Position numbers and translations under genes: made by a program. 64,000 bases of DNA from Eledone cirrhosa (taxonomy: Eukaryota), in the NCBI GenBank assembly GCA_964016885.1, contig OZ024743.1, forward strand, positions 222,084,001-222,148,000, read 5' to 3'. The notes below the pieces were generated by a model. It saw only the letters and a program-made list of their open reading frames with translations. It was not told the origin of the DNA and searched no databases. Position 1 is the stretch's first letter; the number at the start of each line of letters is the position of its first letter. This document shows positions 2,078 to 54,853 of this stretch, piece after piece.

Positions 2078-2290
2078 GAATGCCATGGTTGACGGAGGCT
2101 CGGCTCTGTAAGGTATAGTAATTTTTAACCGTTAAAACAATTGTAAATTGTTTAAAACTTGAACCAAATTGTTGATAAAGACACCCTCCTCCTCGTGAGA
2201 GGGGTCTTTCTGTCCGTTATTTGGCCCTTCGGGGTTAAATAACCAGTTATTGGGGTTTTGTACCCAAAATTTCATTTTAAACAAAAAAAC

Positions 2291-4391
2291 ATGGCTACCA
2301 AAAAAAAAAAATTTCATACGTCACTCCCACTCATTCCGTCTTCTTCTTCCTCAATCATCACTACAGGAGAGAGAAGATTGTCTCTCTCCCTCCCTTCTTT
2401 AAATGTGTCTCTCTCCCTACCTTCTCTTTCGCAAGCGACGAAAGAAAAGAAAAGTCTCGTGCAAAGCGTGCAAGGTTTCTCCACGACGACGACGACAGCG
2501 ACGAAACAGGTGTGCGGGAAATACGAAAACCCAGTTCATTCGTCTGACGTCAGGAATAATAGCAGTAGCAGCCGTAATAACAACAGCAACAGTGACAATG
2601 AAAACAACAGTAGCAGCCGCAACAGCATCACCAGCAGCATAAACAACAACAGCATTAGCAGCAGCAACACCAACAACAACCACAGCAACAGCGGCGGAGG
2701 CAGTAGTCGTAGTACCTGCAGCAACAACAAAAGTACCAGCAGCTCTGACGACAACAACAACAGCAGAGAAAAACCAATCTCATTTGCAGGTATTGCGAAA
2801 AACCTGGAAACAATCCTCATAACAAATGAGGAATTAGAGGAAGCGAAGAAGATGGTGACAAAGAACGGACACCGAGCAATCTGCAAGGCAGCGAAAAATT
2901 TTTTTCGAAACCCAAGAGCACTGTACGGTCACGTACCGTACAGTAAGTACAAAATCCCGTAGGGTGGAAAGAGCCACAGAGGCCCAAATACAAAAAGCCT
3001 TGGGGTCTGTGTGGCAGAGGAAAACGCACATCACCCGAGGCAAAAAATACGCCACCGTAGACGTACTTTTTGCCACACCCCAGGAGGCAAAGGCCCAATC
3101 AGTAGTGACCCTAAGGAGCGAGGAAATGGTGTTGGTGCCCTCCTACTGCGGGCAAAAAATTGTGAGGGTCAAACTGACCCACGTCCCCCCCGGAATGACC
3201 CCTTCTTGGCTGGCCGCGTCTGTCCTCGTCGGAATCGAGGACAAAACAACTGTACTGCAAGTACAGAAAAAAGTAAGAGAAGATTGGGTCGGCTCCTCCA
3301 TTGAGATGCTAATCCAAACCAACCAGGAGTGCATCGAAGCTATCCCGGATGTGATAGACTTCGATAACGGCACTCAACTGCCCATAAGTGTTGAGGGCAA
3401 ACGCCCGAAATGCTTTCGCTGTGGATCGAAGACTCACCTCAGGGCCTTCTGCAACGAGAAGACCCTGAGAAAGGAGAAAACCCCCCTCCTCCCGAATCCG
3501 GTTCCACGGCTACCAGCAACAGGACAAGCGGCAACCAGGAACGATAGGTCCGTGGCACCCATACCCACTCCACGGAAATCAAAGACAGCAGCAGCAGTGG
3601 AAATATTAACAACAACAACAGCAATACCAAATGCAGCTGCAACAGAGACTCCAGTGCAAACATCACCAACAACAACAAGTGAAAGAGTGGAGCTGGTACC
3701 CCTCCCCGACCTTACAGAATCAGACATGGAGTGTGAGGTGGGAGAGGGATGGCAAAAGGTCTCAAGAAGGCACAAACGCAGAAGCAGCGCATCGTCGCCT
3801 TTGAAAAGGGAGGAAAGAAATGAGAAAAGGGTAAAGTCTACTGCAAAGAGACCCACAGCAGCAACACCACCAACACCATCACCACCCACACCAGCACCAC
3901 CATCACCACCGGCGACAACCCCACCGCCAACAACACCTTCAACACCACCACCACAAGCACCAACATCGCAAACACAACAACAAAACACACACACCCAGCA
4001 ACAACGACAAGAAAATAGCAGAACCACACCCCACCCCCAGAAAAACAAATGCACGGCAATAAACACACACAACAAGAAACTAATGACTTACATAATTGAA
4101 CACACAGACATTTCACAACAGGACTACATAATACCAGCACCAATCAAAACGCCAACTAACATAAGACTGCTAAAAATAGCACAGAAACAATACACAAACA
4201 TTAAAACGAAATTTCCCAACGCAGTTGGTGATTTCAGGGACCTAGGAGGAACCATTAATCGAAGAGTATATTCAGACATTCTCTTAGAAGAGCCGACGAC
4301 CAGCCGAAGGGACGATTCAACGGTCCCTTCACCAGACGATCAAGTGAAAAGGGATGTAAAAACCATCCCTCCTCTACCAAAAATACGGTAA
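2291..4391 (+). pseudogene. ORF1 (gag-like nucleic-acid-binding protein), +1 frameshift
   Basis: Extra T in the T-run at ~2899-2905 (7 T versus 6 in other copies) splits the ORF; this could be a homopolymer sequencing error. Knuckle CFRCGSKTHLRAFC is present. Confidence 0.8.
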
Positions 4392-4426
4392 GTGGTCTTT
4401 CCCATCTTTTCCACTCTATTTTAAAC

Positions 4427-7400
4427 ATGACCTCACTCAGAATAGGCAGCATAAATGCGCGTGGCTTGGGGTCGTCATGGAAGCAGGGTCACCTGCTCAA
4501 CGACCTCAGGTCACTAAACATAGATGTAGTGGCCATCAGCGAGACCAGAATCTCCGAAGCACGGGCCTTCGCACCGATCTTCGGCGGCTACGATGTGTAC
4601 GCATCTCCCAGCCGTCCTGGATCCGGTGGAGGAGTTGCTGTACTTTTTCGGAGAGGTTTGGATCTCGCCATACGGGCCATCTTCCTGGACCCAGAGGGTA
4701 AGCTGGTGGTGCTGGACGTGACCAGCGGAGACGGGCAAGCCTTCAGGCTAGTGGCCGTCTATGCCCCGACAGGAGCAGGGCGGCCTGATTTCTTCCGGCG
4801 TCTGGAGACCTTTCTTGGAACGTCCCGCTCTTTAGTGTTAGTGGGCGACTGGAACGGGATCTTAGATGCACGCTGGGACTGTGTGGGATTAGCGGATAGG
4901 GGTGGAGGGTGCAAGAGCCTCACCAACCTGCTCAGGCGTTTTGAACTGTCTGACAGGTACCGATTGGATTTCCCGAATGTGCCAATGTGGACTTGGACAA
5001 ACCGCATAGGGTCATCCAGATCATATCTAGATAGAGTATTTTGTAGGGAAATAGATAGGTCTAGCATAGGCTGTCCACAATTCAAGATAGTCAGCTACAC
5101 GGACCACAAATTCGTGATCTGTGTGCTTGACTTAGATAGGCTTCATAGACGAGGACCCGGCTACTGGAAGCTAAACGCGTCCTTACCAGCGCGCAAGGCC
5201 TACAGAGACCGGATTAGCGAACTAGTTAAGCGGGCGTTGACGGGGGCCATCGTCAACAACAAGTGGTGGTTTGCTCTGAAAAGAGCGATTAGAATAGAAT
5301 CGATTAGGTTTAGTAAGGCTTTAGCAATAGAGAAAAATAGAGCAGAGGGAGAACTAGTTAGAAAATTAGACGAGGCGCTTAGCAAAGGCATTGCGACCGA
5401 CGTGCTTGCGGCGAAATTGGCCCTTGACCAATTCTTCAATGCAAAGCACGAAGGCTGCGTTGTCAGAGCTAGGGTGCGTGCTCTCAGACACGAGGGGACG
5501 AAAGCCGTTCAATGGGCCCGAGTGGCGGAGGCGCGTCGTGGCAACAAAGCCACGATCCGGTCTTTGGTGGACCACGACGGGCGCATGCTACTCGATCCCG
5601 GGCAAATGTGTGAAACTTTTCAGCGACACTTCGCTCAGCTGTTCGGGGGCAGCGGGGGGCCGGGTAGAGGGATGGACTTTAGTGTCTACCTCGACGGGCT
5701 GCCGCGGCTCTCGGCCACTGAGGCGAGGTGTTGCGAAAAGCCGATAACAGCCGCTGAAGTACGGGAGGCAATGACTGGCTGCACAAGGGGTAAATCGCCT
5801 GGTTTGGATGGTCTGCCCTATGAACTTTACGTACAGATGCCAGACTTGTTCGGAGGCCTCTTGGCGGACGTCTACTGCAACTGGCAACAGAACGGGAGAA
5901 TTCCCAGTTCTGTGAGCCGAGGAGCGGTGGCACTGCTGAGAAAGGATCCGAACAAGGGGGATAACATAGACAATTTCCGGCCCATAACTCTGCTAAACAC
6001 AGAGTTTAAGATTTTGGCCAAGGTGCTAGCAAAGAGGTTGGCGCTTGTCGTTGGTGGTCTGGTGGGAGAGGCGCAGACATGCGCCATTCCCGACAGATCC
6101 ATCCACGACAACCTCCACCTCATGCGATACATCGTAGAGAGGGTAGCTAGGGAACCTGGCACGGGTGGGTCCTTGATCAATTTAGATCAGTCGAAAGCTT
6201 TCGATAGGGTCGACCATCGTTACCTAGCGGCAGTCCTGAGGGCGGCTGGCTTTGGGCCCGTCTTCAGAGGCTGGATCGCTGCCATGCACAGCGACATCTG
6301 CTCTGTGGTGAGAGTGAACGGTCACCTGTCGGAACCGTTCAACATCATGCGCTCGGTCCGCCAAGGATGTCCCCTCTCGTCCCTCTTGTACGTATTGACT
6401 CTCGAGCCATTACTGCACAAACTGGAGACGTTGAGGGGAGTCCCGCGCGAACTAGGATGCGGAAGATCCGTGTCAGCATATGCGGACGATGTCACCGTAG
6501 TGGTGTCGAACGCCAAACACATCGAGGCGATCGGCACTACACTAAGAGAATACGAAGCGGTGACAGGAGCAATGATCAACCAGGAAAAGTCAGTGGGCCT
6601 GCAGCTCGGCACCTGGAGAGGCAGGTCCATGCCGTCCAACAGCGTCGTCGGGCGCTGGACGGACGGACCGGTTAAATTGCTAGGGGTCTGGTTCGGTCCG
6701 GACCTCCAGACGGACAAAAACTGGGACGAGGTGACGAGCAGGGTGGCTTCTCTCACCCAGAAATGGGCGGAGAGGAAGCTATCCCTGAAAGGTCGAGCGG
6801 AGGTGGCTAACGCGTACATCGCGTCTGTCATCTGCTACCGCCTAACCGTCGTACCTTGTCCTAAGCCTCGCCTGACTGCGCTGGAGCGTTTGCTCTTTCG
6901 CTTTTTGTGGAAGGGACGTGCTCCGATGGTCAGGCGGTCCATCTGTTGTCAACACCCGCTACGTGGAGGGCTGGGCATGCCGTGGCTGATGATGCGCAGG
7001 CACGCGCTCAGGCTACGACATCTCCACCTCTTCCTCGACGGTGATCAGGTGTGGTCGCCGTTTGCTAGACGCGTTTTTCCCCAGCTCGTTTCCTTGACGG
7101 AGCTGCAGTCCTGGGTCAAGCGAAGACCGAGAGGGAGCGCCTGGAGACTGGAATGTCTTCAGGCGCTCACAGCCCTCGACCAATCGGGCAATGTGATCGG
7201 TGGAAACTCCACCTCGGCGTTCTATAGAGGATTAGTGGAGGGGAAGAGCGACGACGTACTTGGGGAAACTCTAGGCGTCGACGAAAATCAACTAGCCAAT
7301 CTCTTCGGAAGAACTTTCGGGCCAGGGCCTATGGACAACTTCCAGAAATCTCTGGCCTGGCAGTGCTACCGAGGAGCCTTGCCAGTTCGGGATAAACTCT

Positions 7401-7846
7401 ACAGGCATGGAGGTGCCGTCAGCCGGGCATGTCCGAGATGCGCGCAGGGCGACGAAACCGTCCTGCACGCACTCGTCCAGTGTCCGAAAATTGCTGACTT
7501 GTGGGTTTATGTCGAACACCTGCTGTCGCGTTTAGGACGGATCCAGCTATCATCTGAGTCCATCGTGAGGATTGCCCCGCCCTCCTCCTTTAGCCGGGAA
7601 GGGCAGGCAGTTTTTATCTGTCTGGTGGCCATGGCGAAAGAGATAGTATGGTGGACACGTTTGAAAGGGCTGAAGACGAGCACTTACCTCTTCGGTGATG
7701 CTCTGATTGACTTTTTCAAATTTCATTTGAAAAGGAAAATCAGAGTAGAGAGGGAAGTGCTCTCTTCCCAGCATTTTGTTGAAAGATGGGTGAGAGAAGC
7801 AAGAATGGCCCGAGTGAATGGGCCGACTCTGAGTATATATCTGTAA
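4427..7846 (+). CDS. ORF2: APE endonuclease + reverse transcriptase + CCHC zinc finger (1139 aa)
   Basis: APE motifs SINARG, ISETR, VYAP, GDWN, YLDRVF, TDH; L1/Tx1 linker GPGYWKLN; RT motifs KSPGLDG, FRPITLLN, LDQSKAFDRV, RQGCPLS, YADD; C-terminal CPRC..H...C. Confidence 0.96.
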   Translation: MTSLRIGSINARGLGSSWKQGHLLNDLRSLNIDVVAISETRISEARAFAPIFGGYDVYASPSRPGSGGGVAVLFRRGLDLAIRAIFLDPEGKLVVLDVTSGDGQAFRLVAVYAPTGAGRPDFFRRLETFLGTSRSLVLVGDWNGILDARWDCVGLADRGGGCKSLTNLLRRFELSDRYRLDFPNVPMWTWTNRIGSSRSYLDRVFCREIDRSSIGCPQFKIVSYTDHKFVICVLDLDRLHRRGPGYWKLNASLPARKAYRDRISELVKRALTGAIVNNKWWFALKRAIRIESIRFSKALAIEKNRAEGELVRKLDEALSKGIATDVLAAKLALDQFFNAKHEGCVVRARVRALRHEGTKAVQWARVAEARRGNKATIRSLVDHDGRMLLDPGQMCETFQRHFAQLFGGSGGPGRGMDFSVYLDGLPRLSATEARCCEKPITAAEVREAMTGCTRGKSPGLDGLPYELYVQMPDLFGGLLADVYCNWQQNGRIPSSVSRGAVALLRKDPNKGDNIDNFRPITLLNTEFKILAKVLAKRLALVVGGLVGEAQTCAIPDRSIHDNLHLMRYIVERVAREPGTGGSLINLDQSKAFDRVDHRYLAAVLRAAGFGPVFRGWIAAMHSDICSVVRVNGHLSEPFNIMRSVRQGCPLSSLLYVLTLEPLLHKLETLRGVPRELGCGRSVSAYADDVTVVVSNAKHIEAIGTTLREYEAVTGAMINQEKSVGLQLGTWRGRSMPSNSVVGRWTDGPVKLLGVWFGPDLQTDKNWDEVTSRVASLTQKWAERKLSLKGRAEVANAYIASVICYRLTVVPCPKPRLTALERLLFRFLWKGRAPMVRRSICCQHPLRGGLGMPWLMMRRHALRLRHLHLFLDGDQVWSPFARRVFPQLVSLTELQSWVKRRPRGSAWRLECLQALTALDQSGNVIGGNSTSAFYRGLVEGKSDDVLGETLGVDENQLANLFGRTFGPGPMDNFQKSLAWQCYRGALPVRDKLYRHGGAVSRACPRCAQGDETVLHALVQCPKIADLWVYVEHLLSRLGRIQLSSESIVRIAPPSSFSREGQAVFICLVAMAKEIVWWTRLKGLKTSTYLFGDALIDFFKFHLKRKIRVEREVLSSQHFVERWVREARMARVNGPTLSIYL

Positions 7847-8106
7847 ACTAAAGGTGGAAAACTGGGAGAGGGCACTTGCCTTGGTGGTCAGGGTCATTGT
7901 GGCTTTTTACTGGGCTTTCTCCACAAATGTCCCTCCGAAGTCTCCCCCCTATTGGGGAATTTTTCATTGTTATTTTCATTGTTATTTTTGTTACATCCTC
8001 TGTTTTTGTTTTTTTACACGCAGAAATGCCCATTTGTACCGTCCTGCATTGTCCTGCACTGTCCTTAATGTCTACTTTATGTAAACCCTTGTGGTTAATA
8101 AAGAAA

Positions 8107-8108
<2 letters not shown>

Positions 8109-8159: not shown

Positions 8160-8376
8160 GAATGCTATGGTTGACGGAGGCTCGGCTCTGTAAGGTACTG
8201 TAAATTTTGAACGCTTTAACAATTGTAAATTGTTTAAAACTTAGACCAACTTGTAGACAAAAACACCCTCCTCCTCGTGAGAGGGGTCTTTCTGCCCGTT
8301 ATTTGGCCCTTCGGGGTTAAATAACTGCTTATTGGGGGTTTGTACCCAATATTTATTTTAAACAAAAAAAAACAAC

Positions 8377-10473
8377 ATGGCTACGAAAAAGAATTTGCAT
8401 AGGTCACTCCCACTCATTCCGTCTTCTTCTTCCTCAATCGTCACTACAGCAGAGAGAAGATTGTCTCTCTCCCTCCCTTCTTTAAATGTGTCTCTCTCCC
8501 TCCCTTCTCTTTCGCAAGTGACGAAAGAAAAGAAAAGTCTCGTGCAAAGCGTGCAAGGTTTCTCCACGACGACGACGACAGCGACGAAACAGGTGTGCGG
8601 GAAATACGAAAACCCAGTTCATTCGTCTGACGTCAGGAATAATAGCAGTAGCAGCCGTAATAACAACAGCAACAGTGACAATGAAAACAACAGTAGCAGC
8701 CGCAACAGCATCACCAGCAGCATAAACAACAACAGCATTAGCAGCAGCAACACCAACAACAACCACAGCAACAGCGGCGGAGGCAGTAGTCGTAGTACCT
8801 GCAGCAACAACAAAAGTACCAGCAGCTCTGACGACAACAACAACAGCAGAGAAAAACCAATCTCATTTGCAGGTATTGCGAAAAACTTGGAAACAATCCT
8901 CATAACAAATGAGGAATTAGAGGAAGCGAAGAAGATGGTGACAAACAACGGACACCGAGCAATCTGCAAGGCAGCGAAAAATTTTTTCGAAACCCAAGAG
9001 CACTGTACGGTCACGTACCGTACAGTAAGTACAAAATCCCGTAGGGTGGAAAGAGCCACAGAGGCCCAAATACAAAAAGCCTTGGGGTCTGTGTGGCAGC
9101 GGAAATCGCACATCACCCGAGGCAAAAAATATGCCACCGTAGACGTACTTTTTGCCACACCCCAGGAGGCAAAGGCCCAATCAGTAGTGACCCTAAGGAG
9201 CGAGGAAATGGTGTTGGTGCCCTCCTACTGTGGGCAAAAAATTGTGAGGGTCAAACTGACCCACGTCCCCCCCGGAATGACCCCTTCTTGGCTGGCCGCG
9301 TCTGTCCTCGTCGGAATCGAGGACAAAAGAACTGTACTGCAAGTACAGAAAAAAGTAAGAGAAGATTGGGTCGGCTCCTCCATTGAGATGCTAATCCAAA
9401 CCAACCAGGAGTGCATCGAAGCTATCCCGGATGTGATAGACTTCGATAACGGCACTCAACTGCCCATAAGTGTTGAGGGCAAACGCCCGAAATGCTTTCG
9501 CTGTGGATCGAAGACTCACCTCAGGGCCTTCTGCAACGAGAAGACCCTGAGAAAGGAGAAAACCCCCCTCCTTCCGAATCCGGCTCCACGGCTACCAGCA
9601 ACAGGACAAGCGGCAACCAGGAACGATAGGTCCGTGGCACCCATACCCACTCCACGGAAATCAAAGACAGCAGCAGCAGTGGAAATATTAACAACAACAA
9701 CAGCAATACCAAATGCAGCTGCAACAGAGACTCCAGTGCAAACATCACCAACAACAACAAGTGAAAGAGTGGAGCTGGTACCCCTCCCCGACCTTACAGA
9801 ATCAGACATGGAGTGTGAGGTGGGAGAGGGATGGCAAAAGGTCGTAAGAAGGCACAAACGCAGAAGCAGCGCATCGTCGCCTTTGAAAAGGGAGGAAAGA
9901 AATGAGAAAAGGGTAAAGTCTACTGCAAAGAGACCCACAGCAGCAACACCACCAACACCATCACCACCCACACCAGCACCACCATCAGCACCGGCGACAA
10001 CCCCACCGCCAACAACACCTTCAACACCACCACCACAAGCACCAACATCGCAAACACAACAACAAAACACACACACCCAGCAACAACGACAAGAAAATAG
10101 CAGAACCACACCCCACCCCCAGAAAAACAAATGCACGGCAATAAATACACACAACAAGAAACTAATGACTTACATAATTGAACACACAGACATTTCACAA
10201 CAGGACTACATAATACCAGCACCAATCAAAACGCCAACTAACATAAGACTGCTAAAAATAGCACAGAAACAATACACAAACATTAAAACGAAATTCCCCA
10301 ACGCAGTTGGTGATTTCAGGGACCTAGGAGGAACCATCAATCGAAGAGTATACTCAGACATTCTCTTAGAAGAGCCGACGACCAGCCGAAGGGACGATTC
10401 AACGGTCCCTTCACCAGACGATCAAGTGAAAAGGGATGTAAAAACCATCCCTCCTCTACCAAAAGTACGGTAA
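8377..10473 (+). CDS. ORF1 gag-like protein (698 aa)
   Basis: Ser/Asn-rich N-terminus, globular core, C-x2-C-x4-H-x4-C knuckle, basic NLS-like patch, Pro/Thr-rich tail; located upstream of ORF2. Confidence 0.9.
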   Translation: MATKKNLHRSLPLIPSSSSSIVTTAERRLSLSLPSLNVSLSLPSLSQVTKEKKSLVQSVQGFSTTTTTATKQVCGKYENPVHSSDVRNNSSSSRNNNSNSDNENNSSSRNSITSSINNNSISSSNTNNNHSNSGGGSSRSTCSNNKSTSSSDDNNNSREKPISFAGIAKNLETILITNEELEEAKKMVTNNGHRAICKAAKNFFETQEHCTVTYRTVSTKSRRVERATEAQIQKALGSVWQRKSHITRGKKYATVDVLFATPQEAKAQSVVTLRSEEMVLVPSYCGQKIVRVKLTHVPPGMTPSWLAASVLVGIEDKRTVLQVQKKVREDWVGSSIEMLIQTNQECIEAIPDVIDFDNGTQLPISVEGKRPKCFRCGSKTHLRAFCNEKTLRKEKTPLLPNPAPRLPATGQAATRNDRSVAPIPTPRKSKTAAAVEILTTTTAIPNAAATETPVQTSPTTTSERVELVPLPDLTESDMECEVGEGWQKVVRRHKRRSSASSPLKREERNEKRVKSTAKRPTAATPPTPSPPTPAPPSAPATTPPPTTPSTPPPQAPTSQTQQQNTHTQQQRQENSRTTPHPQKNKCTAINTHNKKLMTYIIEHTDISQQDYIIPAPIKTPTNIRLLKIAQKQYTNIKTKFPNAVGDFRDLGGTINRRVYSDILLEEPTTSRRDDSTVPSPDDQVKRDVKTIPPLPKVR

Positions 10474-10508
10474 GTGGTCTTTCCCATCTTTTCCACTCTA
10501 TTTTAAAC

Positions 10509-13500: not shown

Positions 13501-13928
13501 TCAGCCGGGCATGTCCGAGATGCGCGCAGGGCGACGAAACCGTCCTGCACGCACTCGTCCAGTGTCCGAAAATTGCTGACTTGTGGGTTTATGTCGAACA
13601 CCTGCTGTCGCGTTTAGGACGGATCCGGCTATCATCTGAGTCCATCGTGAGGATTGCTCCGCCCTCCTCCTTTAGCCGGGAAGGGCAGGCAGTTTTTATC
13701 TGCCTGGTGGCCATGGTGAAAGAGATAGTATGGTGGACACGTTTGAAAGGGCTGAAGACGAGCACTTACCTCTTCGGTGATGCTCTCATTGACTTTTTCA
13801 AATTTCATTTGAAAAGGAAAATCAGAGTAGAGAGGGAAGTGCTCTCTTCCCAGCATTTTGTTGAAAGATGGGTGAGAGAAGCAAGAATGGCCCGAGTGAA
13901 TGGGCCGACTCTGAGTATATATCTGTAA
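10509..13928 (+). CDS. ORF2 APE-RT-zinc finger (1139 aa)
   Basis: Same motifs as copy A; intact. Confidence 0.96.
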   Translation: MTSLRIGSINARGLGSSWKQGHLLNDLRSLNIDVVAISETRISEARAFAPIFGGYDVYASPSRPGSGGGVAVLFRRGLDLAIRAIFLDPEGKLVVLDVTSGDGQAFRLVAVYAPTGAGRPDFFRRLETFLGTSRSLVLVGDWNGILDARWDCVGLADRGGGCKSLTNLLRRFELSDRYRLDFPNVPMWTWTNRIGSSRSYLDRVFCREIDRSSIGCPQFKIVSYTDHKFVTCVLDLDRLHRRGPGYWKLNVSLPARKAYRDRISELVKRALTGAIVNNKWWFALKRAIRIESIRFSKALAIEKNRAEGELVRKLDEALSKGIATDVLAAKLALDQFFNAKHEGCVVRARVRALRHEGTKAVQWARVAEARRGNKATIRSLVDHDGRMLLDPGQMCEAFQRHFAQLFGGSGGPGRGMHFSVYLDGLPRLSATEAKCCEKPITAAEVREAMTGCTRGKSPGLDGLPYELYVQMPDLFGGLLADVYCNWQQNGRIPSSVSRGAVALLRKDPNKGDNIDNFRPITLLNTEFKILAKVLAKRLALVVGGLVGEAQTCAIPDRSIHDNLHLMRYIVERVAREPGTGGSLINLDQSKAFDRVDHRYLAAVLRAAGFGPVFRGWIAAMHSDICSVVRVNGHLSEPFNIMRSVRQGCPLSSLLYVLTLEPLLHKLETLRGVPRELGCGRSVSAYADDVTVVVSNAKHIEAIGTTLREYEAVTGAMINQEKSVGLQLGTWRGRSMPSNSVVGRWTDGPVKLLGVWFGPDLQTDKNWDEVTSRVASLTQKWAERKLSLKGRAEVANAYIASVICYRLTVVPCPKPRLTALERLLFRFLWKGRAPMVRRSICCQHPLRGGLGMPWLMMRRHALRLRHLHLFLDGDQVWSPFARRVFPQLVSLTELQSWVKRRPRGSAWRLECLQALTALNQSGNVIGGNSTSAFYRGLVEGKSDDVLGETLGVDENQLANLFGRTFGPGPMDNFQKSLAWQCYRGALPVRDKLYRHGGAVSRACPRCAQGDETVLHALVQCPKIADLWVYVEHLLSRLGRIRLSSESIVRIAPPSSFSREGQAVFICLVAMVKEIVWWTRLKGLKTSTYLFGDALIDFFKFHLKRKIRVEREVLSSQHFVERWVREARMARVNGPTLSIYL

Positions 13929-16516: not shown

Positions 16517-16551
16517 GTGGTCTTTCCCATCTTTTCCACTCTATTTTAAAC

Positions 16552-34686: not shown

Positions 34687-34721
34687 GTGGTCTTTCCCAT
34701 CTTTTCCACTCTATTTTAAAC

Positions 34722-38401: not shown

Positions 38402-38451
<50 letters not shown>

Positions 38452-38791: not shown

Positions 38792-38813
38792 TTCATTTTA
38801 AACCAAAAAAAAC

Positions 38814-39187: not shown

Positions 39188-39218
<31 letters not shown>

Positions 39219-40986: not shown

Positions 40987-41020
40987 GTGGTCTTTCCTAT
41001 CTTTTCCACTCCATTTCAAC

Positions 41021-44000: not shown

Positions 44001-44191
44001 ACACGTTTGAAAGGGCTGAAGACGAGCACTTACCTCTTCGGTGATGCTCTGATTGACTTTTTCAAATTTCATTTGAAAAGGAAAATCAGAGTAGAGAGGG
44101 AAGTGCTCTCTTCCCAGCATTTTGTTGAAAGATGGGTGAGAGAAGCAAGAATGGCCTGAGTGAATGGGCTACTCTGAGTTTATATCTGTAA
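41021..44191 (+). pseudogene. ORF2 of copy G (disrupted)
   Basis: 249-nt in-frame deletion at ~41650, stops at 42263 and 42959, frameshift at ~43725. Confidence 0.92.
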
Positions 44192-44432
44192 ATTAAAGGT
44201 GGAAAACTGGGAGAGGGCACTTGCCTTGGTGGTCAGGGTCATTGTGGCCTTTTACTGGGCTTTCTCCACAAATGTCCCTCCGAAGTCTCCCCCCTATTGG
44301 GGAATTTTTCTTTGTTATTTTATTACATCCTCTGTTTTTTACACGCAGAAATGCCCATTTGTACCGTCCTGTATTGTCCTGTACTGTCCTTAATGTCTAC
44401 TTTATGTAAACCCTTGTGGTTAATAAAGAAAA

Positions 44433-44472
<40 letters not shown>

Positions 44473-44681
44473 GGCGACCTACGTAGTAAATCGTATCATC
44501 GTGAGCTCCGCAAAGGTTTGTTATTTCCGTTTGTTAAAAATATCCATTTATGGAAAATTTTTATTGTTAACTATATATAAGCGCACATACATTGTTTTCC
44601 GAAAAGGACACCCAAAAAGATTGGGGCCTTGTGCCCAAAATTTAAACTTTTATGATTATCAAAAAATTTCTTTGAAAGAAA

Positions 44682-46679
44682 ATGGCTAATTCACCACTGC
44701 ACCAAGCAGCTGAAAGCCTTTCTCACAAATTAACACCTCACACCGACACCACCATTGTAAATGATTATACGTCTTCCAACACAAATAAATTAAGCACTAG
44801 CAATATTTTAAATTTGTCTCAGGCAGACATTCATTTCCCACCATTACCAATGACTGAAGGTGTTAAAGCCGCCACCACCACCACCACCGCGACAACCACC
44901 ACCCCCACCACCACCGCGACAGCAGAAACAAAAGGAAAAAATAAATCAACTCGTGATGTCGAAATATTTTCAACCAAAATAGACTCTCCCAAACCTACTT
45001 TCACTGACGTCACCACCACCACAACTGAAACTAAAATTAATAATAACAAAAATAACGATAGCAACAACAACAACAATGACATTAAAAAAATCACCCTCAG
45101 TTTTGTCAGAGTAGCAAAACAGTTCGAAGCATTTACGGTAACTCAGGAGGATTTAGAAAATGCCAAACAAATGGTAAAGAAAGATGGATACAGGGTCAGC
45201 CTCACCCACCCACCCCACCCCACACCTAATAAAATGGAGCATCGGCGCCTATGCACCGTGTCGTATCGAACAATAAATGTAAAATCGCGCCGAGTGGAAC
45301 GGGCATCCGAGTCCCAAATCCAAAAAGCTTTGGGACATGTGTGGGCAAGAAAAACCCACATCAGACGTGGGCAGAAGTATGGAACCGTGGACGTGTTCTT
45401 TGAAACACCAGAGGAGGCCAGAGAACACTCCATGGCCCCATTAAGAAGTGACGACTTCACACTCGTCCCAAGCTATTGTGGCCAGAGACTCGTAAAGATC
45501 AGGGTGACCCACGTTCCACCGGCCATCGAAATTCCCTGACTAATAGCGGCCGTCCTCGCCGGCATCGAAGCCAACACAAAAATAATAGCAATAACAAAAG
45601 AAAAGCAGGAGAACTGGTCCGGATCTGGGATGGAGCTCCTGATCCAAGCGGACCAAAAAAGCATTGAGGAGATCCCAGAGGTAATAGACCTCACTGACGG
45701 CAGCCACCTCACCGTAATTGTCGAGGGCAGAAGGCCTAGGTATGTCGTTTGTGGTGAAGGAACCCACCTAAGAGCTTTCTGCCCTCAGGCTAAAAGGTTG
45801 AGGCCACCTCTCCTACCCACCCCAGTGACACAACCAACAACACCACCAGTAGCAGAGATGGCAGCAACAAATGTAGCAGCAACAACAGAAGCAACTATAA
45901 CAGCAACAACCCCAGCAACAGTAGCAAAACCAACACCACCACCACCAGTAAAACCAACACCACCACCACCCAACGCTTCAGAACTAGCACCAGCGCCTAC
46001 ACCATCCACCACGCCACAACCAAAACTAACGCCTGTGGAGGATTTTCCACTCCCCGGCCTATCACAACTGGAGACAGATTGTGACGACGAGGAGTGGGAA
46101 ACGGTATCCGGAAAAAAAAAAAGAAACCAAAAAAGAAAAAATTCTCTTCCTTCCCCCTCCAAAAACAAAATACAGAGGGAAACAAATAAATTAAGAAACA
46201 AAAAAGTTAGGACAGATATGCCACCATCCACACCAGCATCACCAACCCCATCAACCCAAACACCAACTCCATCACCATCATTAACCCCAACACCACCATC
46301 ACCTACACCACAAAAGTCACCAAAATGCGAAACAGAAACAAACCCACAACAAACGCAAACAAAACAAAACAACCAAAACGATACACACTACACAGCATTA
46401 AATTTGAACAACAAGCAATTATTACACTACATCCAACACAACACCAGCATCACAGAAAAAGACTACACAACAACACCAAAATTCACACCACCTCCACACA
46501 TACAAATCACTCGCATCACACAGAAAACGTACATGACACTAAAACAAAAATTCCCCAAAGACATCGGAGACTTCCGACAAGCACTCTCCAGGAGGATTTA
46601 TAAGGACATCCTTCCTGAGGAGGCCACAAGCAGTGAAAAGGATGGAAAAACCGTCCTTCCCCTACGAGAAGAAAGGTAA
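44682..46679 (+). pseudogene. Divergent ORF1 (type 2) with one nonsense codon
   Basis: Core motifs align with ORF1 of A-F (CTVSYRT..KSRRVERASESQIQKALG, LVPSYCGQ, CGEGTHLRAFC); termini do not align. TGA at 45537-45539, frame continues. Confidence 0.88.
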
Positions 46680-46713
46680 GTGGTCTTTCCCATCTTTTCC
46701 ACTCCTTTTCAAC

Positions 46714-49700
46714 ATGACCTCACTCAGAATAAGCAGCATAAATGCGCGTGGCTTGGGGGTCGTCATGGAAGCAGGGCCACCTGCTCAACGACCTCAGGTC
46801 ACTAAACATAGATGTAGTGGCCATCAGCGAGACCAGAATCTCCGAAGCACAGGCCTTCGCACCGATCTTCGACGGCTACGATGTGTACGCATCTCCCAGC
46901 CGTCCGGGATCGGGGGGAGGAGTTGCTGTGCTTTTTCGGAGAGGTTTGGATCTTGCCATACGGGCCATCTTCCTGGACCCAGAAGGTAAGTTGGTGGTGC
47001 TGGACGTGGCCAGCGGAGACGGGCAAGCTTTCAGGTCAGTGGCCGTCTATGCCCCGACAGGAGCAGGGCGGCCTGATTTCTTCCGGCGTCTGGAGACCTT
47101 TCTTGGAACGTCCCGCTCTTTAGTGTTAGTGGGCGACTGGAACGGGATCTTAGATGCACGCTGGGATTGTGTGGGATTAGTGGATAGGGAAGGAGGGTGC
47201 AAGAGTCTTACCAACCTGCTCAGGCGTTTTGAACTGTCTGACAGGTACCGAATGGATTTCCCGAATGTACCAATGTGGACTTGGACAAATCGCATAGGGT
47301 CATCCAGATCATATCTAGATAGAGTATTTTGTAGGGAAATAGATAAGTCTAGCATAGGCTGTCCACAATTCAAGATAGTCAGCTACACGGACCACAAATT
47401 CGTAATCTGTGTGCTTGACTTAGATAGGCTTCATAGAAGAGGACCCGGCTACTGGAAGCTAAACGCGTCCTTACCAGCGCGCAAGGCCTACAGAGACCGG
47501 ATTAGTGAACTAGTTAAGCGGGCGTTGACGGGGGCCATCGTCAACAACAAGTGGTGGTTTGCTCTGAAAAGAGCAATTAGAATAGAGTCTATTAGGTTTA
47601 GTAAGGCTTTAGCAATAGAGAAAAATAGAGCAGAGGGAGAATTAGTTAGAAAATTAGACGAGGCGCTTAGCAAAGGCATCGCGACCGACGTACTTGCGGC
47701 GAAATTGGCCCTTGACCAATTCTTCAATGCAAAGCACGAAGGCTGCGTTGTCAGAGCTAGGGTGCGTGCTCTCAGACACGAGGGGACGAAAGCCGTTCAA
47801 TGGGCCCGAGTGGCGGAGGTGCGTCGTGGCAATAAAGCCACGATCCGGTCTTTGGTGGACCACGACGGGCGCATGCTACTCGATCCCGGGCAAATGTGTG
47901 AAGCTTTTCAGCGACACTTCGCTCAACTGTTCGGGGGCAGTGGCGGGCCGGATCGAGGGATGAACTTTAGTGTCTACCTCGACGGACTGCCGCGGCTTTC
48001 GGCCACTGAGGCGGAGTGTTGCGAAAAGCCGATAACAACCGCTGAAGTACGGGAGGCAATGACTGGCTGCACAAGGGGTAAATCGCCTGGTTTGGATGGT
48101 CTGCCCTATGAACTTTACGTACAAATGCCAGACTTGTTCGGAGGCCTCTTGGCGGACGTCTACTGTAACTGGCAACAGAACGGGAGAATTCCCAGCTCTG
48201 TGAGCCGAGGAGCGGTGGCGCTGCTGAGAAAGGATCCGAACAAGGGGGATAACATAGATAATTTTAGGCCCATAACTCTGCTAAACACAGAGTTCAAGAT
48301 TTTGGCCAAGGTGCTAGCAAAGAGGTTGGCGCTTGTCGTTGGTGGTCTGGTGGGAGAGGCGCAGACATGCGCCATTCCCGACAGATCCATCCACGACAAC
48401 CTCCACCTCATGCGATACATCGTAGAGAGGGTAGCTAGGGAACCTGGCACGGGTGGGTCTTTGATCAATTTAGATCAGTCGAAACCTTCGATAGGGTCGA
48501 CCATCGTTACCTAGCGGCAGTCCTGAGGGCGGCTGGCTTTGGGCCCGTCTTCAGAGGCTGGATCGCTGCCATGCACAGCGACATCTGCTCTGTAGTGAAA
48601 GTGAACGGTCACCTTTCGGAACCGTTCAACATCATGCGCTCGGTCCGCCAAGGATGTCCCCTCTCGTCCCTCTTGTACGTATTGACTCTCGAGCCATTAC
48701 TGCACAAACTGGAGACGTTGAGGGGGGTCCCGCGTGAACTAAGATGCGGAAGATCCGTGTCAGCATATGCCGACGATGTCACCGTAGTGGTGTCGAACGC
48801 CAAACACATCGAGGCGATCGGCACTACACTAAGAGAATACGAAGCGGTGACAGGAGCAATGATCAACCAGGAAAAGTCAGTGGGCCTGCAGCTCGGCACC
48901 TAGAGAGGCAGGTCCATGTGTCCAACAGCGTCGTCGGGCGCTGGACGGACGGACCGGTTAAATTGCTAGGGGTCTGGTTCGGTCAAGACCTCCAGACGGA
49001 CAAAAACTGGGACGAGGTGACGAGCAGGGTGGCTTCTCTCACCCAGAAATGGGCGGAGAGGAAGCTATCCCTGAAAGGTCGAGCGGAGGTGGCGAATGCG
49101 TACATCGCGTCCGTCATCTACTACCGCCTGACCGTCGTACCTTGTCCTAAGCCCCGCCTGACTGCGCTGGAGCGTTTGCTCTTTCGCTTCTTGTGGAAGG
49201 GACGTGCTCCGATGGTCAGGCGGTCCAACTGCTGTCAACACCCGCTACGTGGAGGGCTGGGCATGCCGTGGCTGATGATGCGCAGACACGCGCTCAGGCT
49301 ACGATATCTCCACCTCTTCCTCGACGGTGATCAGCTGTGGTCGCCGTTTGCTAGACAAATTTTTCCCCAGCTCGTCTCCTTGACGGAGCTGCAGTCCTGG
49401 GTCAAGCGAAGACCGAGAGGGAGCGCTTGGAGACTGGAATGTCTTCAGGCGCTTACAGCCCTCGACCAATCGGGCAATGTGATCGGTGGAAACTCCACCT
49501 TGGCGTTCTATAGGGGATTAGTGGAGGGGAAGAGCGACGACGTACTAAGAGAAACTCTAGGAGTCGACGAAAATCAACTAGCCAATCTCTTCGGAAGGAC
49601 TTTCGGGCCGGGGCCTATGGACAACTTCCAGAAATCCCTGGCCTGGCAGTGCTACCGGGGAGCCTTGCCAGTTCGGGATAAACTCTACAGGCATGGAGGT

Positions 49701-50132
49701 GCCGTCAGCCGTGCATGTCCGAGATGCGCGCAGGGCGACGAAACCGTCCTGCACGCACTCGTCCAGTGTCCGAGCATTGCTGACTTGTGGGTTTATGTCG
49801 AACACCTGCTGTCACGTGTAGGACGGATCCAGCTATCACCTGAGTCCATCGTGAGGATTGCCCCGCCCCCTTCTTTTAGCCGGGAAGGGCAGGCAGTTTT
49901 TATCTGTCTGGTGACCATGGCGAAAGAGATAGTATGGTGGACACGTTTGAAAGGGCTGAAGACGAGCACTTACCTCTTCGGTGATGCCCTGATTAACTTT
50001 TTCAAATTTCATTTAAAAAGGAAAATCAGGGTAGAGAGGGAAGTGCTCTCTTCCCAGCATTTTGTTGAAAGATGGGTGAGAGAAGCAAGTATGGCCCGAA
50101 TGAATGGGCCTTCTCTGAGTATGTGTCTGTAA
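46714..50132 (+). pseudogene. ORF2 of copy H (disrupted)
   Basis: Very similar to young ORF2; frameshifts at ~46757, ~48485 and ~48919, stop at 48901. Confidence 0.92.
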
Positions 50133-50603
50133 ATTAAGGGTGGAAAACTGGGAGAGGGCACTTGCCCTGGTGGTCAGGGTCACTGTGGTCTTTTAATGGG
50201 CTTTCTCCACAAATGTCCCTCGGAAGTCTCCCCCCTATTGGGGAATTTTTCTTTGTTATTTTATTTCATCCTCTGTTTTTTACACGCAGAAATGCCCATT
50301 TGTACCGTCCTGTATTGTCCTGTACTGTCCTTAATGTCTACTTTATGTAAACCCTTGTGGTTAATAAAGAAAACATTATTATTATTATTATTATTATTAT
50401 CGGTCTGTTCGGACGCCTTTTGCTCGCTCCCAGTAAGTCGCTTTATTTGCCTGTTAAAATTATTTGTTGTTAAGTATTTCTTGTTGTGTAAGGGATATAA
50501 GCCCTTAGATTTTGCCCTGTTAAGGGGAAAGTAAAATATGTGGGCCTTTTAGCCCAAATATTTGAACATTTTACTTTTAAAAAAAAAATGTTTCAAAAAA
50601 AAC

Positions 50604-51193
50604 ATGGCTGAGCCACGCCCCCAGCAATATGTCTGCTGTCGTCTGACAACGGCGTAAAAGTTGAGAGGCGGGTTACAAACATTGTTACAACAGACACCAC
50701 CACAAACAACGGGAACAAAGACAACACTGAGAACACTAATTTCGAAAAAATTACCACACCAACTACAACAATAACAGCGTCAACCAAAATACAGACAACA
50801 GAAAAAAATGACAACAAATGCAACAACGATATTAACACCACTAACAAGAAAATAAACAACGACAACACCAACAGCAACAATGCAGATTGCACCGAAAACA
50901 ACAACAACGGTGGCACCAAAAACACAACCAGCTACAACAGTGATAACAGCAACAACACCAACAACACCGTTCGTAGCAGTAACAACAGCAACAACACCAA
51001 CAACAAGACCAGTAGCGGTAGCAATAATGGTGCCGCTGAAAAAGGGGCCACTTCTTTCGCAGGTGTGGCCCGAAATATAGACTTCAGAGGGTCGGTTACC
51101 AAGAGGATATACACCGACATCCTCTTGGAAACACCCATGACCAGCCAAAGGGACGGTTCTACTGTCCCTTCACCACACGATCAAGGTAAGTGA
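50604..51193 (+). pseudogene. Internally deleted ORF1 (type 3)
   Basis: aacATGGCT start, early frameshift, Asn/Thr-rich stretch, then TSFAGVARNI joined directly to DFRGSVTKRIYTDILLE..STVPSPHDQ. Core and knuckle are missing. Confidence 0.75.
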
Positions 51194-51225
51194 TCCTTTC
51201 TCACTTACCCCGTTTCTCATCCAAT

Positions 51226-54200
51226 ATGGCCGTACTTAGAATAGGCAGTATAAATATACGTGCCCTGGGGTCATCTTGGAAGCAGGGTCACCTGCTCAAC
51301 GACCTCAGGTCACTAAACATCAGCGAGACCAGAATCTCCGAAGCATGAGCCTTCGCGCCGATCTTCGGCGGCTACGATGTATACGCATCCGTCCGGGAGA
51401 GGGGTTGCCGTGCTTTTTCGGAGAGGCTTGGATCTCGCGATACGGGCCATCTTCCTGGACCCAGAAGGTAAGTCGGTGGTGCTGGACGTGACCGGCAGCG
51501 AAGGCAATTCTTTCAGGCTAGTAGACGTCTACGCCCCAACAGGAACAAGACGGCTAGATTTCTTCAGACGTCTAGAAACCTTTCTTGGAACGTCCCGCTC
51601 TTTAGTGTTAGAGGATGACTGGAACGGTATCTTAGATGCACGCTGGGATTGTGTGGGGCTAGTAGACAGGGCAGGAGGGCGTAAAAGCCTCAACAACCTG
51701 CTCAGACGTCTTGAACTGTCTGACAGGTATAGACTGGATTATCCGAATGTGCCCATGTGGACATGGCCAAACCGCATCGGGTCATCCAGATCGTATTTAG
51801 ATAGGGTATTCTGTAGGGAAACAGATAAGGCTAGTGTAGGTTGTCCACAATTTAAAGTAGTCGACTACACGAACCACAAATTTGTGATCTGTGAAGTTGA
51901 CATAGATAGACTCCATAGGCAAGGGCCCGGCTACTGGAAGCTGAACGCGTCGTTCCCGGCGCGCAAAGCTTACAGAGACCGGATTAGCGAATTAGTTAAG
52001 CGTGCGTTGACGGATGCGATCGTCAACAACAGGTGGTGGTTTACCCTGAAAAGGGCTATTAGAGTTGAATTGATAAGGTTTAGCAAAGGAGTAGTTATAG
52101 AGGAAAATAGAGTAGAGAGAGAGTTAGTTAGAAATCTAGAAGAGGCGTTAGGACAGGCATCGCAACCGACGTATTTGCGGCGAGATTGGCACTCGACCAC
52201 TTCTTCAACGCAAAGTATGAAGGTTGCGTTGTCAGAGCTAGAGCGCGTACTCTAAGACACGGGGGCATGAAAGCCGTTCAATGGGCCCGGGTGGTGGAGG
52301 CGCGACGTGGCAACAAGTCCACAATTCGATCTTTGCCTGATCAAAACGGGCGCATGTTGCTCGAACCCGAGCAGATGTGTGCGGCTTTTCAACAGCACTT
52401 CTTCTCAATTGTTCGGGAGCGGCGGCGGGCCGGATCGGAGTATACTTTTCGGTGCATACGTCGACGGACTGCCGCGGCTCTCGACGACCGCTGCGCAGTA
52501 CTGCGAAAGGCCGATAACAGCAGGTGAAATACGGGGCGCGATGTATGACTGCACGAGGGGTAAATCGCCAGGTTTGGATGGTCTGCCCTACGAGCTTTAT
52601 GCGTATATGCCAGACCTGTTCGGCGACCTCTTGGTAGATGTCTACTACAACTGGCAGGAGAACGGAAGCATTCCCAGTTTTGTGAGCCGGGGAGCGGTGG
52701 CGCTGCTGAGAAAAGACCCGAACAAGGGGGACGTTATAGACAACTTCAGGCCCATAACTCTGCTAAACGCAGAGTTTAAGATTTTGGCCAAGGTGTTAGC
52801 AAAGAGATTGGCGCTTTTCGTCGGTGATCTGCTAGGAGAGGCGCAGACATGCGCCATATCGGACAGATCCATCCACGACAAACTCCATCTCATGCGATAC
52901 ATCATAGAGAGGGTGGTTAAGGAACCTGGCACGGGTGGGGCCCTGATCAACTTGGATCAATCTAAAGCATTTGATTGGGTCGACCACCGGTACCTGGCTA
53001 CGGTCCTCGAGGTAGCCGACTTCGAGCCCGTTTTTAGGGGCTGGATAGCTACGATGCACAGTGACATCTGCTCGATTGTGAGGGTGAAAGGTCACCTGTC
53101 GCAGCCTTTCAGCATCATGCGCTCGGTCCGCCAGGGTTGTTCCCTCTCGTCCCTCCTGTATGTACTGGCCCTCGAGCTCTTACAGCACAAATTGGAGACG
53201 ATGAGGGGGCCCCACGCGAACTGGGATGCGAGAGATCCGTGTCAGCTTACGCCGACGACGTCACCGTGGTGGTGTCGACCACTAAACACTTCCAGATGCT
53301 CGGCACCGCTCTCAAGGAATACAAAGCGGTGACAGGAGCAAAGGTAAACCAGGAAAAGTTGGTGGGCTTGCAACTCGGCACCTGGAGAGGCAAGTCCATG
53401 CCGTCCGACAGCGTCGTGGGGCGCTGGACGGAAGGACCGATTAAATTGCTTGGGGTCTGAACCTCCAGATGGAGAAAAACTGAAGCGAGGTGACGAGCAG
53501 GGTGGCCTCTCTCATCCAGAAATGGGCCGAGAGGAGGCTGTCTCTGAAAGGTCGGGCGGAGGTGGCGAATGCGTACATAGCGTCCGTCATCTGCTAACGC
53601 CTGACCTTCGTACCTTGCCCCCGCCCAACTCTGACCAAAATGGAGCGCCTTCTCTTCCGCTTTTTGTGGAAGGGACGTGCTCCCATGGTCAGACGATCCA
53701 TTTGCTGTCAACACCCGTTGTGTGGAGGACTAGGCATGCCGTGGCTGATGATGCGCAAACATGAGCTGAGGCTGCGACATCTCTGGTGCTTCCTTGACGG
53801 TGGACAGGTGTGGTCGCCGTTTGCCAGACGCGCTTTTCCCCAGCTCGTCTCCTTGACGGAGCTGCAGTCCTGGATCAGGAAAAGACCGAGGAATAGCGCT
53901 TGGAAGCTGGAATGTCTCCAAGCGCTCACCACGCTCTACCAGCTGGGCCCTAGTATCGGTGGAACATCCACCTCGGCGTTCTATAGAGGGCTAGTGGAGG
54001 GGAAGAGCGACGACGTTCTCGGGAAGACCCTGGGCGTCGAAGACGATCATCTGTTCGCTCTCTTCAAGAGAACTTTCAGCCCGGGCCTATGGACAACTTC
54101 CAGAAATCCCTGGCCTGGCAGTGCTACCGGGGAGCGTTACCGGTTCGGGATAAGCTCTACAGGCACGGAGGTGCTGTCAGCCGAGCCTGTCTGAGATGCG

Positions 54201-54583
54201 CGCAGGGCGACAAAACTGTCCTGCACGCACTCGGTCAGTGCCCGAGTATTGCTGACTTGTAGAGCTATGTCGAACAGCTGCTATCGCGTGTAGGACGGAT
54301 CCAGTTATCGACTGAGTCCATTGTGCAGATAGCCCCGCCATCCTCCTTTAAAGAGGAGGAAGGGCAGGCAGTTTTCATCTGCCAGGTGGCCATGGCGAAA
54401 GAGATTGTGTGGTAGATAAGGTTGAAAGGGTTGAAGACGTACACTTTACTCTCCGGCCAATCCCTGATTAACTTTTTCAAGTTGGAGAGGTGAGTGCTGT
54501 CTTCTAGTAAGTTTGTTTAAAAGTGGATGAAAGTAGCGACTCTGGTCCGAGTGAACGGGCCCGCTCTGAGTATGCGCCTGTAG
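51226..54583 (+). pseudogene. ORF2 of copy I (diverged, disrupted)
   Basis: MAVLRIGSIN start; APE and RT motifs recognisable (YADD at ~53248); many stops and frameshifts. Confidence 0.9.
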
Positions 54584-54853
54584 ATTGAGGAGTGGGAGAA
54601 CTGAGAGAGGGTGCTTGCCCTGGTGGTTAGGGTGGCTGTGGTCTTTTGTGTGGTTTTCGCCACGAGTGACCCTCCAGAAACTCACCTTATTGACTTCTGC
54701 AGAAATTGTAAAGTATGACAGTATGGTGACTAATGTCAGGATACGATCTGTAATTCCACCCTTACGGAAACTAAAGTATATGTTGACAATTTAAAAACTA
54801 TAATATCTTTTATCTCTATTTCATGCCGCAAAAACTGGCGATGGGCCGGCGAC

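What the first reader, a model, noticed from the sequence alone, without database searches (positions are those of the whole stretch)
2078..54692. Polarised age gradient along the array
Seen: A-F are near-identical and mostly intact; G has multiple stops and a nested insertion; H has a different ORF1 and several frameshifts; I is most diverged, has lost its tail and abuts ordinary genomic DNA. Random insertion into any ATT tract would intermix ages. Known: Drosophila HeT-A/TART/TAHRE telomere arrays have this geometry (3' tails pointing inward, oldest copies proximal), and centromeric arrays show layered expansion. Inference: growth is directional, or a young core pushes old layers outward, so the array is a chronological record of the family and may mark a telomeric or centromeric domain. 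Precise, uneroded 5' ends argue against true terminal addition, and the H-like fragment at 1762-2077 is an exception to the gradient.
Basis: partly seen in the sequence, partly recalled or inferred. Interest (0 to 1): 0.7.

Follow-up and report, generated by a model that had tools for sequence, protein, structure and literature searches.

The report
Self-seeding LINE array in ATT microsatellite
This is a head-to-tail stack of retrotransposon copies separated by ATT repeats, likely built by repeated insertion into those repeats; its young copies form one block with older copies on both sides, so it is not the one-way, telomere-like age record that was proposed.

Summary
The array is real: nine ~6 kb L1/Tx1-type LINE copies (A-I) joined by (ATT)6-17, plus a cut copy Z and a 3' fragment. 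A-F are young and I is oldest, but the order is not a one-way clock.

1. Divergence from A-F is mostly selected lineage divergence (ORF2 dN/dS 0.17-0.22), not decay since insertion.
2. By decay, G exceeds H: 13 vs 5 stops and frameshifts; conserved codons changed 6/229 vs 1/242.
3. A-F show no internal trend.
4. The left side is old too: a decayed Dong/R4-like LINE end in opposite orientation (1540-1761) is fused to an 8%-diverged fragment, with young Z beyond.
5. I lost its tail, so nothing can be added to its right. Unbiased tract choice then gives the observed tiers with P 0.036-0.22.
6. Recombination scrambles ages: G has a clean tract, G and H share a stop, and A-F are mosaic.

Best reading: a microsatellite-targeting LINE that renews its own target. 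There is no telomere sign, and a centromere role cannot be tested here.

The parts
1..1530 (+). Copy Z: young LINE cut by the window edge (3' part of ORF2 and 3'UTR)
   Evidence: 7-19 substitutions to A-F over ~1.5 kb; no stop or indel in 421 codons
1531..1539 (.). (ATT)3 shared tail-to-tail by Z and the opposite-strand relic
   Evidence: sequence
1540..1761 (-). 3' end of an RLE-type (Dong/R4-like) non-LTR element, decayed (1 stop in 49 codons), opposite orientation
   Evidence: 18 homologues among 41 candidates, best 69% identity; homologue P0154 has RT plus a PD..D-type C-terminus, best PDB hits are R2 proteins; tblastn E 5e-15
1762..2026 (+). Older 3'UTR fragment of the array family, fused head-to-head to the relic with no ATT between
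   Evidence: 17-27 differences in ~250 nt to Z and A-H
2078..8108 (+). Copy A (young; 5'UTR type 1; ORF1 +1 frameshift in a T run; ORF2 intact); preceded by (ATT)17, followed by (ATT)17
8160..14191 (+). Copy B (young, intact; 5'UTR type 2). ORF1 8377-10473 (698 aa, one CCHC knuckle); ORF2 10509-13928 (1139 aa, APE endonuclease + RT + zf-RVT); tail (ATT)7
14213..20234 (+). Copy C (young, intact; 5'UTR type 1); tail (ATT)7
20256..26284 (+). Copy D (young, intact; 5'UTR type 2); tail (ATT)14
26327..32358 (+). Copy E (young, intact; 5'UTR type 2); tail (ATT)6
32377..38403 (+). Copy F (young; 5'UTR type 1; one ORF1 stop); tail (ATT)16
38452..44433 (+). Copy G: decayed (7 stops, 6 frameshifts, 249-bp deletion); A-F-type ORF1 at 7.8% divergence, H-like 3'UTR end; tail (ATT)13
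38627..38790 (+). Nested ~160-bp insertion in the G 5'UTR; reads as an open C-terminal peptide (RTE-like by recall only)
   Evidence: homologue search found 0 of 7 candidates
43265..44156 (+). Tract of G ORF2 almost free of private changes (approximate bounds); likely recombination or conversion
   Evidence: 0-3 private changes in 891 nt vs 41 in 2242 nt, Fisher P 6e-4 conservative; terminal branch 0.0018 vs 0.021
44473..50374 (+). Copy H: distant 5'UTR/ORF1 joined near the ORF1 end to a 96%-identical ORF2; 2 stops, 3 frameshifts; tail (ATT)8
50399..54692 (+). Copy I: oldest; most of ORF1 deleted, 7 frameshifts and 4-7 stops in ORF2, 3'UTR end and tail lost
54693..64000 (.). Flank: AT-rich DNA with SINE-like repeats and a decayed minus-strand RT; no (ATT)3 or (AAT)3 tract

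Best explanation
An L1/Tx1-type LINE with an APE endonuclease and RT sits in a head-to-tail stack with ATT repeats at the junctions, likely because it inserts by target-primed reverse transcription into (ATT)n and its own (ATT)n tail renews the target. Each insertion would split one tract into two, so new targets arise beside the newest copies and a burst tends to stay in one block (preferential attachment). The oldest copy I lost its tail to a deletion, which closes the right end and alone makes the array look one-sided. A second deletion or double truncation left an old layer on the left. Subfamilies with different 5'UTR/ORF1 modules were likely active over overlapping periods, and recombination or conversion later mixed their sequences. 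The result is three age tiers (young Z and A-F; middle G, H and likely the fragment; old I), not an ordered clock. SHOWN: anatomy, lesion counts, selected divergence, mosaicism, the tail loss and the null probabilities. INFERRED: endonuclease specificity for ATT, independent insertion of each copy, and the order of events.
For: Domains: RVT_1 1e-28, Exo_endo_phos 3e-14, zf-RVT 7e-8; best PDB hit is L1 ORF2p, 1e-51. 10 of 11 3' ends carry (ATT)3-17 and 9 of 10 visible 5' ends follow ATT, while the 9.3 kb right flank has no (ATT)3 tract. A-F ORF2 singletons are 23 synonymous to 12 non-synonymous against a neutral 1:2.3-3.1, P<3e-5, so the copies diverged under selection, as retrotransposing lineages do. 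Neighbours are no more alike than non-neighbours (61.4 vs 57.9 overall, P 0.73). G exceeds H in decay: 13 vs 5 lesions P 0.096; unshared lesions plus conserved-site missense 17 vs 4, P 0.007, a post-hoc sum. Unbiased tract choice gives YYYYYY-MM-I in 3.6% of runs and a contiguous young block in 10.8%; 6.7% counting Z; 4-22% with length weighting. Recombination: 765 of 1378 informative site pairs in A-F are incompatible, G has a clean tract, and G and H share a stop at ORF2 codon 730. A second LINE clade uses the same repeat from the other strand.
Against: The simplest unbiased model gives P only 0.036 for all six young copies left of G, so a mild bias is not excluded. Position does correlate with decay under free shuffling (P 0.012-0.035). 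G>H is significant only when the measures are pooled (Fisher 0.06 alone), and H's ORF1 has no close reference, so small compensating frameshifts there could be missed. Conversion from active copies elsewhere could make tandem duplicates look selected. A-G share one 5' start, with none of the 5' truncation usual for independent LINE insertions, which would also fit duplication. G is A-F-like on its left and H-like on its right, as an unequal crossover between neighbours would give. Only one array was seen.
Confidence: 0.68

Rival explanations
1. Growth is biased: new copies prefer tracts upstream of, or away from, decayed and silenced copies, so arrays layer from an active zone.
For: 0 of 7 young copies lie in the tails of G or H (P 0.036-0.067 under equal tracts); rank correlation of decay with position.
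Against: H is less decayed than G yet lies inside it; no order within A-F; young Z lies beyond an old layer and used a tract leaving only (ATT)3; P rises to 0.1-0.2 with length weighting; the array was picked because it looked ordered.
Confidence: 0.14
2. A-F arose from one or two insertions by unequal exchange and concerted evolution, with diverged units left at the edges, as in the Drosophila R1 array.
For: Identical full-length 5' starts in A-G; heavy mosaicism; G has a hybrid structure and shares a stop and an 8-bp UTR deletion with H; bioRxiv 10.1101/158386 describes this route (passages).
Against: Differences among A-F are mostly synonymous (P<3e-5); no neighbour similarity (P 0.45-0.73); two 5'UTR types in the order 1-2-1-2-2-1 with no period; no lesion shared among A-F.
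Confidence: 0.13
3. The array is a telomere-type terminal addition array (HeT-A/TART/TAHRE-like) with the chromosome end to the left.
For: All family copies face one way, with the oldest at the inner end; in Drosophila the tails point toward the centromere (PMC10088271, passages).
Against: No telomeric repeat dimers; an old layer and an opposite-orientation LINE lie left of A; no 5' erosion; a microsatellite at the junctions; short 3'UTR (~270 nt); non-monotonic decay.
Confidence: 0.03
4. The young block is an assembly artefact, one or a few copies written several times.
For: 6 kb units at 98.5-99.5% identity are hard to assemble; A's frameshift is in a homopolymer.
Against: Each copy has 6-19 private substitutions that respect codon position, which read errors would not; tail lengths differ.
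Confidence: 0.02

Closest known systems
Microsatellite-targeting Tx1-clade LINEs (Kibi, (TC)n; Koshi, (TTC)n; crocodilian Tx1, (TTCC)n/(TTTC)n)
   Same: APE-RT architecture of the L1 group, and insertion in a simple repeat (PMC4494074, PMC3812793; passages).
   Different: The repeat here is (ATT)n/(TAA)n, which the list I read assigns only to Dong. The homologues found are unnamed, mostly 25-45% identical, with a few partial ones at 60-80%. Clade placement was not tested.
Tandem TE arrays by repeated insertion at a preserved target; Drosophila R1 array
   Same: The target is preserved at each junction and insertion renews it (bioRxiv 10.1101/158386, passages).
   Different: The target is a microsatellite that is also the element's tail. 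Units look independently derived rather than amplified, and several subfamilies are mixed.
Dong / R4-clade elements (TAA microsatellites)
   Same: Same repeat (PMC3812793); the 1540-1761 relic matches the C-terminus of RLE-type proteins and ends in (AAT)3.
   Different: The array elements use an APE endonuclease and the opposite strand; the relic is a 222-bp remnant.
SART and TRAS in Bombyx and Tribolium telomeric repeats
   Same: Two LINE families enter one repeat from opposite strands (PMC5537684, passages).
   Different: The repeat here is not telomeric, and the two families use different endonuclease classes.
Drosophila HeT-A/TART/TAHRE arrays
   Same: Head-to-tail, one orientation.
   Different: No chromosome end is shown, there is no 5' erosion, a target repeat lies at the junctions, ages are not monotonic, and an opposite-orientation element lies within the run.

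Membership tests
L1-group non-LTR retrotransposon | ORF1 plus ORF2 with APE endonuclease, RT and C-terminal zinc finger; no LTRs; simple-repeat tail | tested here: met
Tx1 clade | RT phylogeny places it in the Tx1 clade rather than L1 | not testable with these tools
   All homologues returned were unnamed; the cluster look-up could not be made; no named Tx1 ORF2 was available
Tx1 clade, target-specific family | More than 20% of genomic copies flanked by one target type (criterion in PMC4494074) | tested here: inconclusive
   9 of 10 visible 5' ends and 10 of 11 3' ends at ATT, but all in one locus and the tail is itself ATT
Array by repeated insertion at a preserved target | Target sequence retained at each tandem junction | tested here: met
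   9 of 9 head-to-tail junctions carry (ATT)6-17
Array by repeated insertion at a preserved target | Units of independent origin (distinct truncations or lineages) | tested here: inconclusive
   Selected divergence and no neighbour similarity, and distinct 5' ends in H and I; but A-G share one 5' start
HeT-A/TART/TAHRE-type telomeric array | Runs to a chromosome end | not testable with these tools
   The window is cut inside Z; 0 telomeric-repeat dimers
HeT-A/TART/TAHRE-type telomeric array | All elements in one direction | tested here: not met
   Opposite-strand LINE relic at 1540-1761
   G more decayed than H, flat A-F, old layer left of A, shared intact 5' start in A-G
Centromeric layered expansion | CENP-A occupancy over the young core | not testable with these tools
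   No chromatin data
Centromeric layered expansion | Mirror-image older layers on both sides of a homogenised core | tested here: inconclusive
   Old material lies on both sides but is not mirror-ordered, and young Z resumes on the left
Dong/R4 clade (relic 1540-1761) | C-terminus of an RT protein with a restriction-like endonuclease | tested here: met
Dong/R4 clade (relic 1540-1761) | RT phylogeny within R4 | not testable with these tools
   The relic lacks RT; the R4/Dong label rests on a recalled C-terminal motif plus the (AAT)3 end

The most novel reading that the evidence does not exclude
An APE-type L1/Tx1 LINE has converged on the TAA/ATT microsatellite used by RLE-type Dong elements, entering from the opposite strand. 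It inserts almost only as full-length copies into its own tails and truly avoids the tails of decayed copies, so that arrays grow as layered, self-seeding landing pads that could nucleate retrotransposon satellites or centromeric domains, with several 5'UTR/ORF1 modules competing on one ORF2.
Probability: 0.12. Interest if true: 0.65.

Novelty: new member of a known kind. Interest (0 to 1): 0.3.

Why it matters
The proposed telomere or centromere signal is not needed. A tail-renewing, microsatellite-targeting LINE plus one tail deletion yields an apparently polar array by chance several percent of the time, and similarity to the young family is a poor proxy for insertion age. What remains of value to TE specialists is a likely ATT-targeting L1/Tx1-type family with four fully intact copies here, sharing its repeat with a Dong/R4-like element. 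The locus also shows ORF1 swapping and conversion, and offers a genome-wide test of whether insertion into own tails is directional.

Tried and rejected
- Rfam at gathering thresholds on the whole window: 0 matches. E-value scan of 1500-2400: three matches, all far below their gathering scores. So there is no RNA-gene target and no known ribozyme at the 5' ends.
- Telomeric repeats: 0 dimers; none in the tandem-repeat list.
- A higher-order period or neighbour similarity in A-F: none.
- Age order inside A-F: none.
- Identity of the insertion in G: 0 of 7 candidates scored, so 'RTE-like' is recall only.
- ORF1: no Pfam family for the intact ORF1 (one sub-threshold MBD match in H ignored). Atlas look-alikes are CCHC/ZCCHC3-type, scores 0.88-0.93, a lead only.
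- Host and clade names: not obtained (the cluster look-up could not be made; two searches gave no names).
- The shared G/H stop as proof of conversion: the identical tract is at most ~138 nt and TGG codons mutate to stops often here, so coincidence is not excluded.
- Literature search for an age gradient in LINE tandem arrays: 0 papers.
- No eukaryotic genome collection was available, so other arrays and the DNA left of the window stayed unchecked.
Full report
ANATOMY. Self-comparison shows a ~6.05 kb unit repeated head to tail. Each unit has a ~215-nt 5'UTR, a ~698-aa ORF1 with one CCHC knuckle and no Pfam match, and a 1139-aa ORF2 with an APE-type endonuclease, RT and zf-RVT. The best solved relative is L1 ORF2p. 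It is an L1-group non-LTR retrotransposon that works like Tx1; the clade itself could not be tested. Units A-I start at 2078, 8160, 14213, 20256, 26327, 32377, 38452, 44473 and 50399. The tracts before them are (ATT)17, 17, 7, 7, 14, 6, 16, 13 and 8. Left of A lie a 3'UTR fragment (1762-2026), a 222-bp spacer and a cut copy Z. The host is probably an octopus. This rests on a recalled SINE motif (5 copies in the flank vs 0.23 expected) and on Octopus vulgaris having active L1-Tx1 and Dong-R4 families (PMC13282606, passages and section 8); it was not established.

DIVERGENCE IS NOT AGE. I therefore counted decay directly. Stops plus frameshifts over both ORFs are A 1, B-E 0, F 1, G 13 and H 5; I has 11-14 in ORF2 alone, three of its stops being alignment-dependent. 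G's clustered indels near the ORF1 start were counted as one. At 243 ORF2 codons conserved in at least half of 53 homologues (53 of the first 60 hits, kept by length), changes are 0 of 243 in each of A-F, 6 of 229 in G, 1 of 242 in H and 23 of 236 in I. G versus H gives Fisher P 0.06, or 0.027 without their shared stop; lesions 13 vs 5 give P 0.096, and the pooled unshared count 17 vs 4 gives P 0.007, post hoc. So G is at least as old as H and probably older, though it lies nearer the young block. Over ORF2 nt 1-2493, G and H are equally far from E (3.08% and 2.85%). G looks younger only through its ORF1 type and one tract.

RECOMBINATION. G has 41 private changes in 2242 nt before ORF2 nt 2494 and 0-3 in the next 891 nt (conservative P 6e-4); its terminal branch falls from 0.021 to 0.0018. 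G and H share a TAG at codon 730 and an 8-bp 3'UTR deletion. Among A-F, 765 of 1378 pairs of informative sites are incompatible, with a 28-site 5'UTR split ACF versus BDE. H carries a distant 5'UTR/ORF1 (65% DNA identity in the core) on a 96%-identical ORF2. The ORF1 end of the far older I is closer to B (23 of 37 residues) than to H (15 of 29). The array is thus a mix of modules, not a linear record.

THE YOUNG BLOCK. ORF2 singletons in A-F are 23 synonymous and 12 non-synonymous, against a neutral ratio near 1:2.4 (P<3e-5). This argues against read errors and against neutral drift after tandem duplication. Neighbours are not more alike (P 0.45-0.73) and singletons do not trend with position (rho -0.41, P 0.42). 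Against independent insertion, A-G all start at the same base, whereas non-LTR insertions are prone to 5' loss (bioRxiv 10.1101/158386, passages).

THE LEFT SIDE. The spacer, read on the minus strand, encodes the last 49 residues of an RT protein, with one stop. It found 18 homologues among 41 candidates, up to 72% identical; one full homologue has RT, a CCHC and a PD..D-type domain and matches R2 structures best. The Dong/R4 label is recalled from the C-terminal motif; Dong elements target TAA repeats (PMC3812793, passages). The relic shares an (ATT)3 tail-to-tail with Z and is fused head-to-head, without ATT, to the fragment, which differs from Z and A-H at 17-27 of ~250 sites. The true order is young, old, young x6, middle, middle, old.

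IS IT MORE THAN CHANCE? Against free shuffling of positions, yes (P 0.012-0.035). But that null is wrong for an element that makes a new target at each insertion and whose founder has no tail. A forward simulation with uniform choice among tracts gives the exact tier order in 3.6% and a contiguous young block in 10.8% of runs. The figure is 6.7% when Z and the relic's tail are counted, and 4-22% when tracts are weighted by length under assumed starting lengths. For one array chosen because it looked ordered, this is weak evidence of bias, not none. Whether I's tail was lost early (closing the right end) or late (removing right-hand copies), the deletion explains the asymmetry.

MECHANISM. Shown: the coding capacity, ATT at the junctions, tiers of decay, mosaicism and the lost tail. 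Inferred from known TPRT: the endonuclease nicks the (AAT)n strand, the RNA tail primes there, and the tract is split and renewed. Preferential attachment then clusters a burst. Confidence 0.68; biased growth 0.14; unequal exchange 0.13; telomere 0.03; artefact 0.02.

COMPARISON AND NOVELTY. Microsatellite-targeting Tx1 elements (PMC4494074, passages; PMC4640811, passages) and arrays by repeated insertion are known. Telomeric HTT arrays share only the orientation (PMC10088271, PMC5537684; passages). I found no report of an APE-type element targeting TAA/ATT, nor of such arrays in cephalopods, in eight searches seen as listings. [quoted passage not shown] Verdict: observation partly confirmed, polar or telomeric reading not upheld, new member of a known kind, interest 0.3.

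Noticed in passing
window 1531-1761: A young APE-type LINE and a decayed RLE-type (Dong/R4-like) LINE sit tail-to-tail on opposite strands of one (ATT)3, like SART and TRAS in telomeric repeats.
   Followed up: partly
window 44473-46632: H carries a distant 5'UTR/ORF1 joined about 80 nt before the ORF2 start to a 96%-identical ORF2: a module swap.
   Followed up: partly
window 2160-2295, 8242-8380, 50480-50608: The 5'UTRs of A, B and I fold into three stacked hairpins just before the ORF1 start (z -2.7, -2.5, -3.1) although I's UTR does not align to A-F's. H's region does not (z 0.2). G's nested insertion disrupts the last hairpin.
   Followed up: partly
window 42959-42961 and 48901-48903: G and H share the same non-CpG stop at ORF2 codon 730; conversion between neighbours, mobilisation in trans or coincidence.
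   Followed up: partly
window 2078-38452, 5' ends: Two 5'UTR types (28 linked sites) alternate 1-2-1-2-2-1, and G is a mix of both; all start at the same base.
   Followed up: partly
window 39773-39792: A 20-bp poly-C-rich insertion in G ORF1.
   Followed up: no
window 26110-26120 (D 3'UTR, approximate): A cluster of seven adjacent substitutions unique to D, resembling a local micro-inversion or template switch.
   Followed up: no
window 57506-57721 and 58253-58468: A 216-bp inverted repeat at 99% identity, about 530 bp apart, in AT-rich DNA; possibly a young MITE or foldback element.
   Followed up: no
window 61900-63500, minus strand: A decayed RT-encoding element of another family (RVT_1, E 2.6e-14 at 62328-62933).
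   Followed up: no
window 55570, 56027, 56215, 60131, 61461: Five copies of a SINE-like motif, recalled as typical of octopus genomes.
   Followed up: partly
window 54930-55108 and 56835-57013: Two 85%-identical copies of another LINE-like 3' end in opposite orientations.
   Followed up: no
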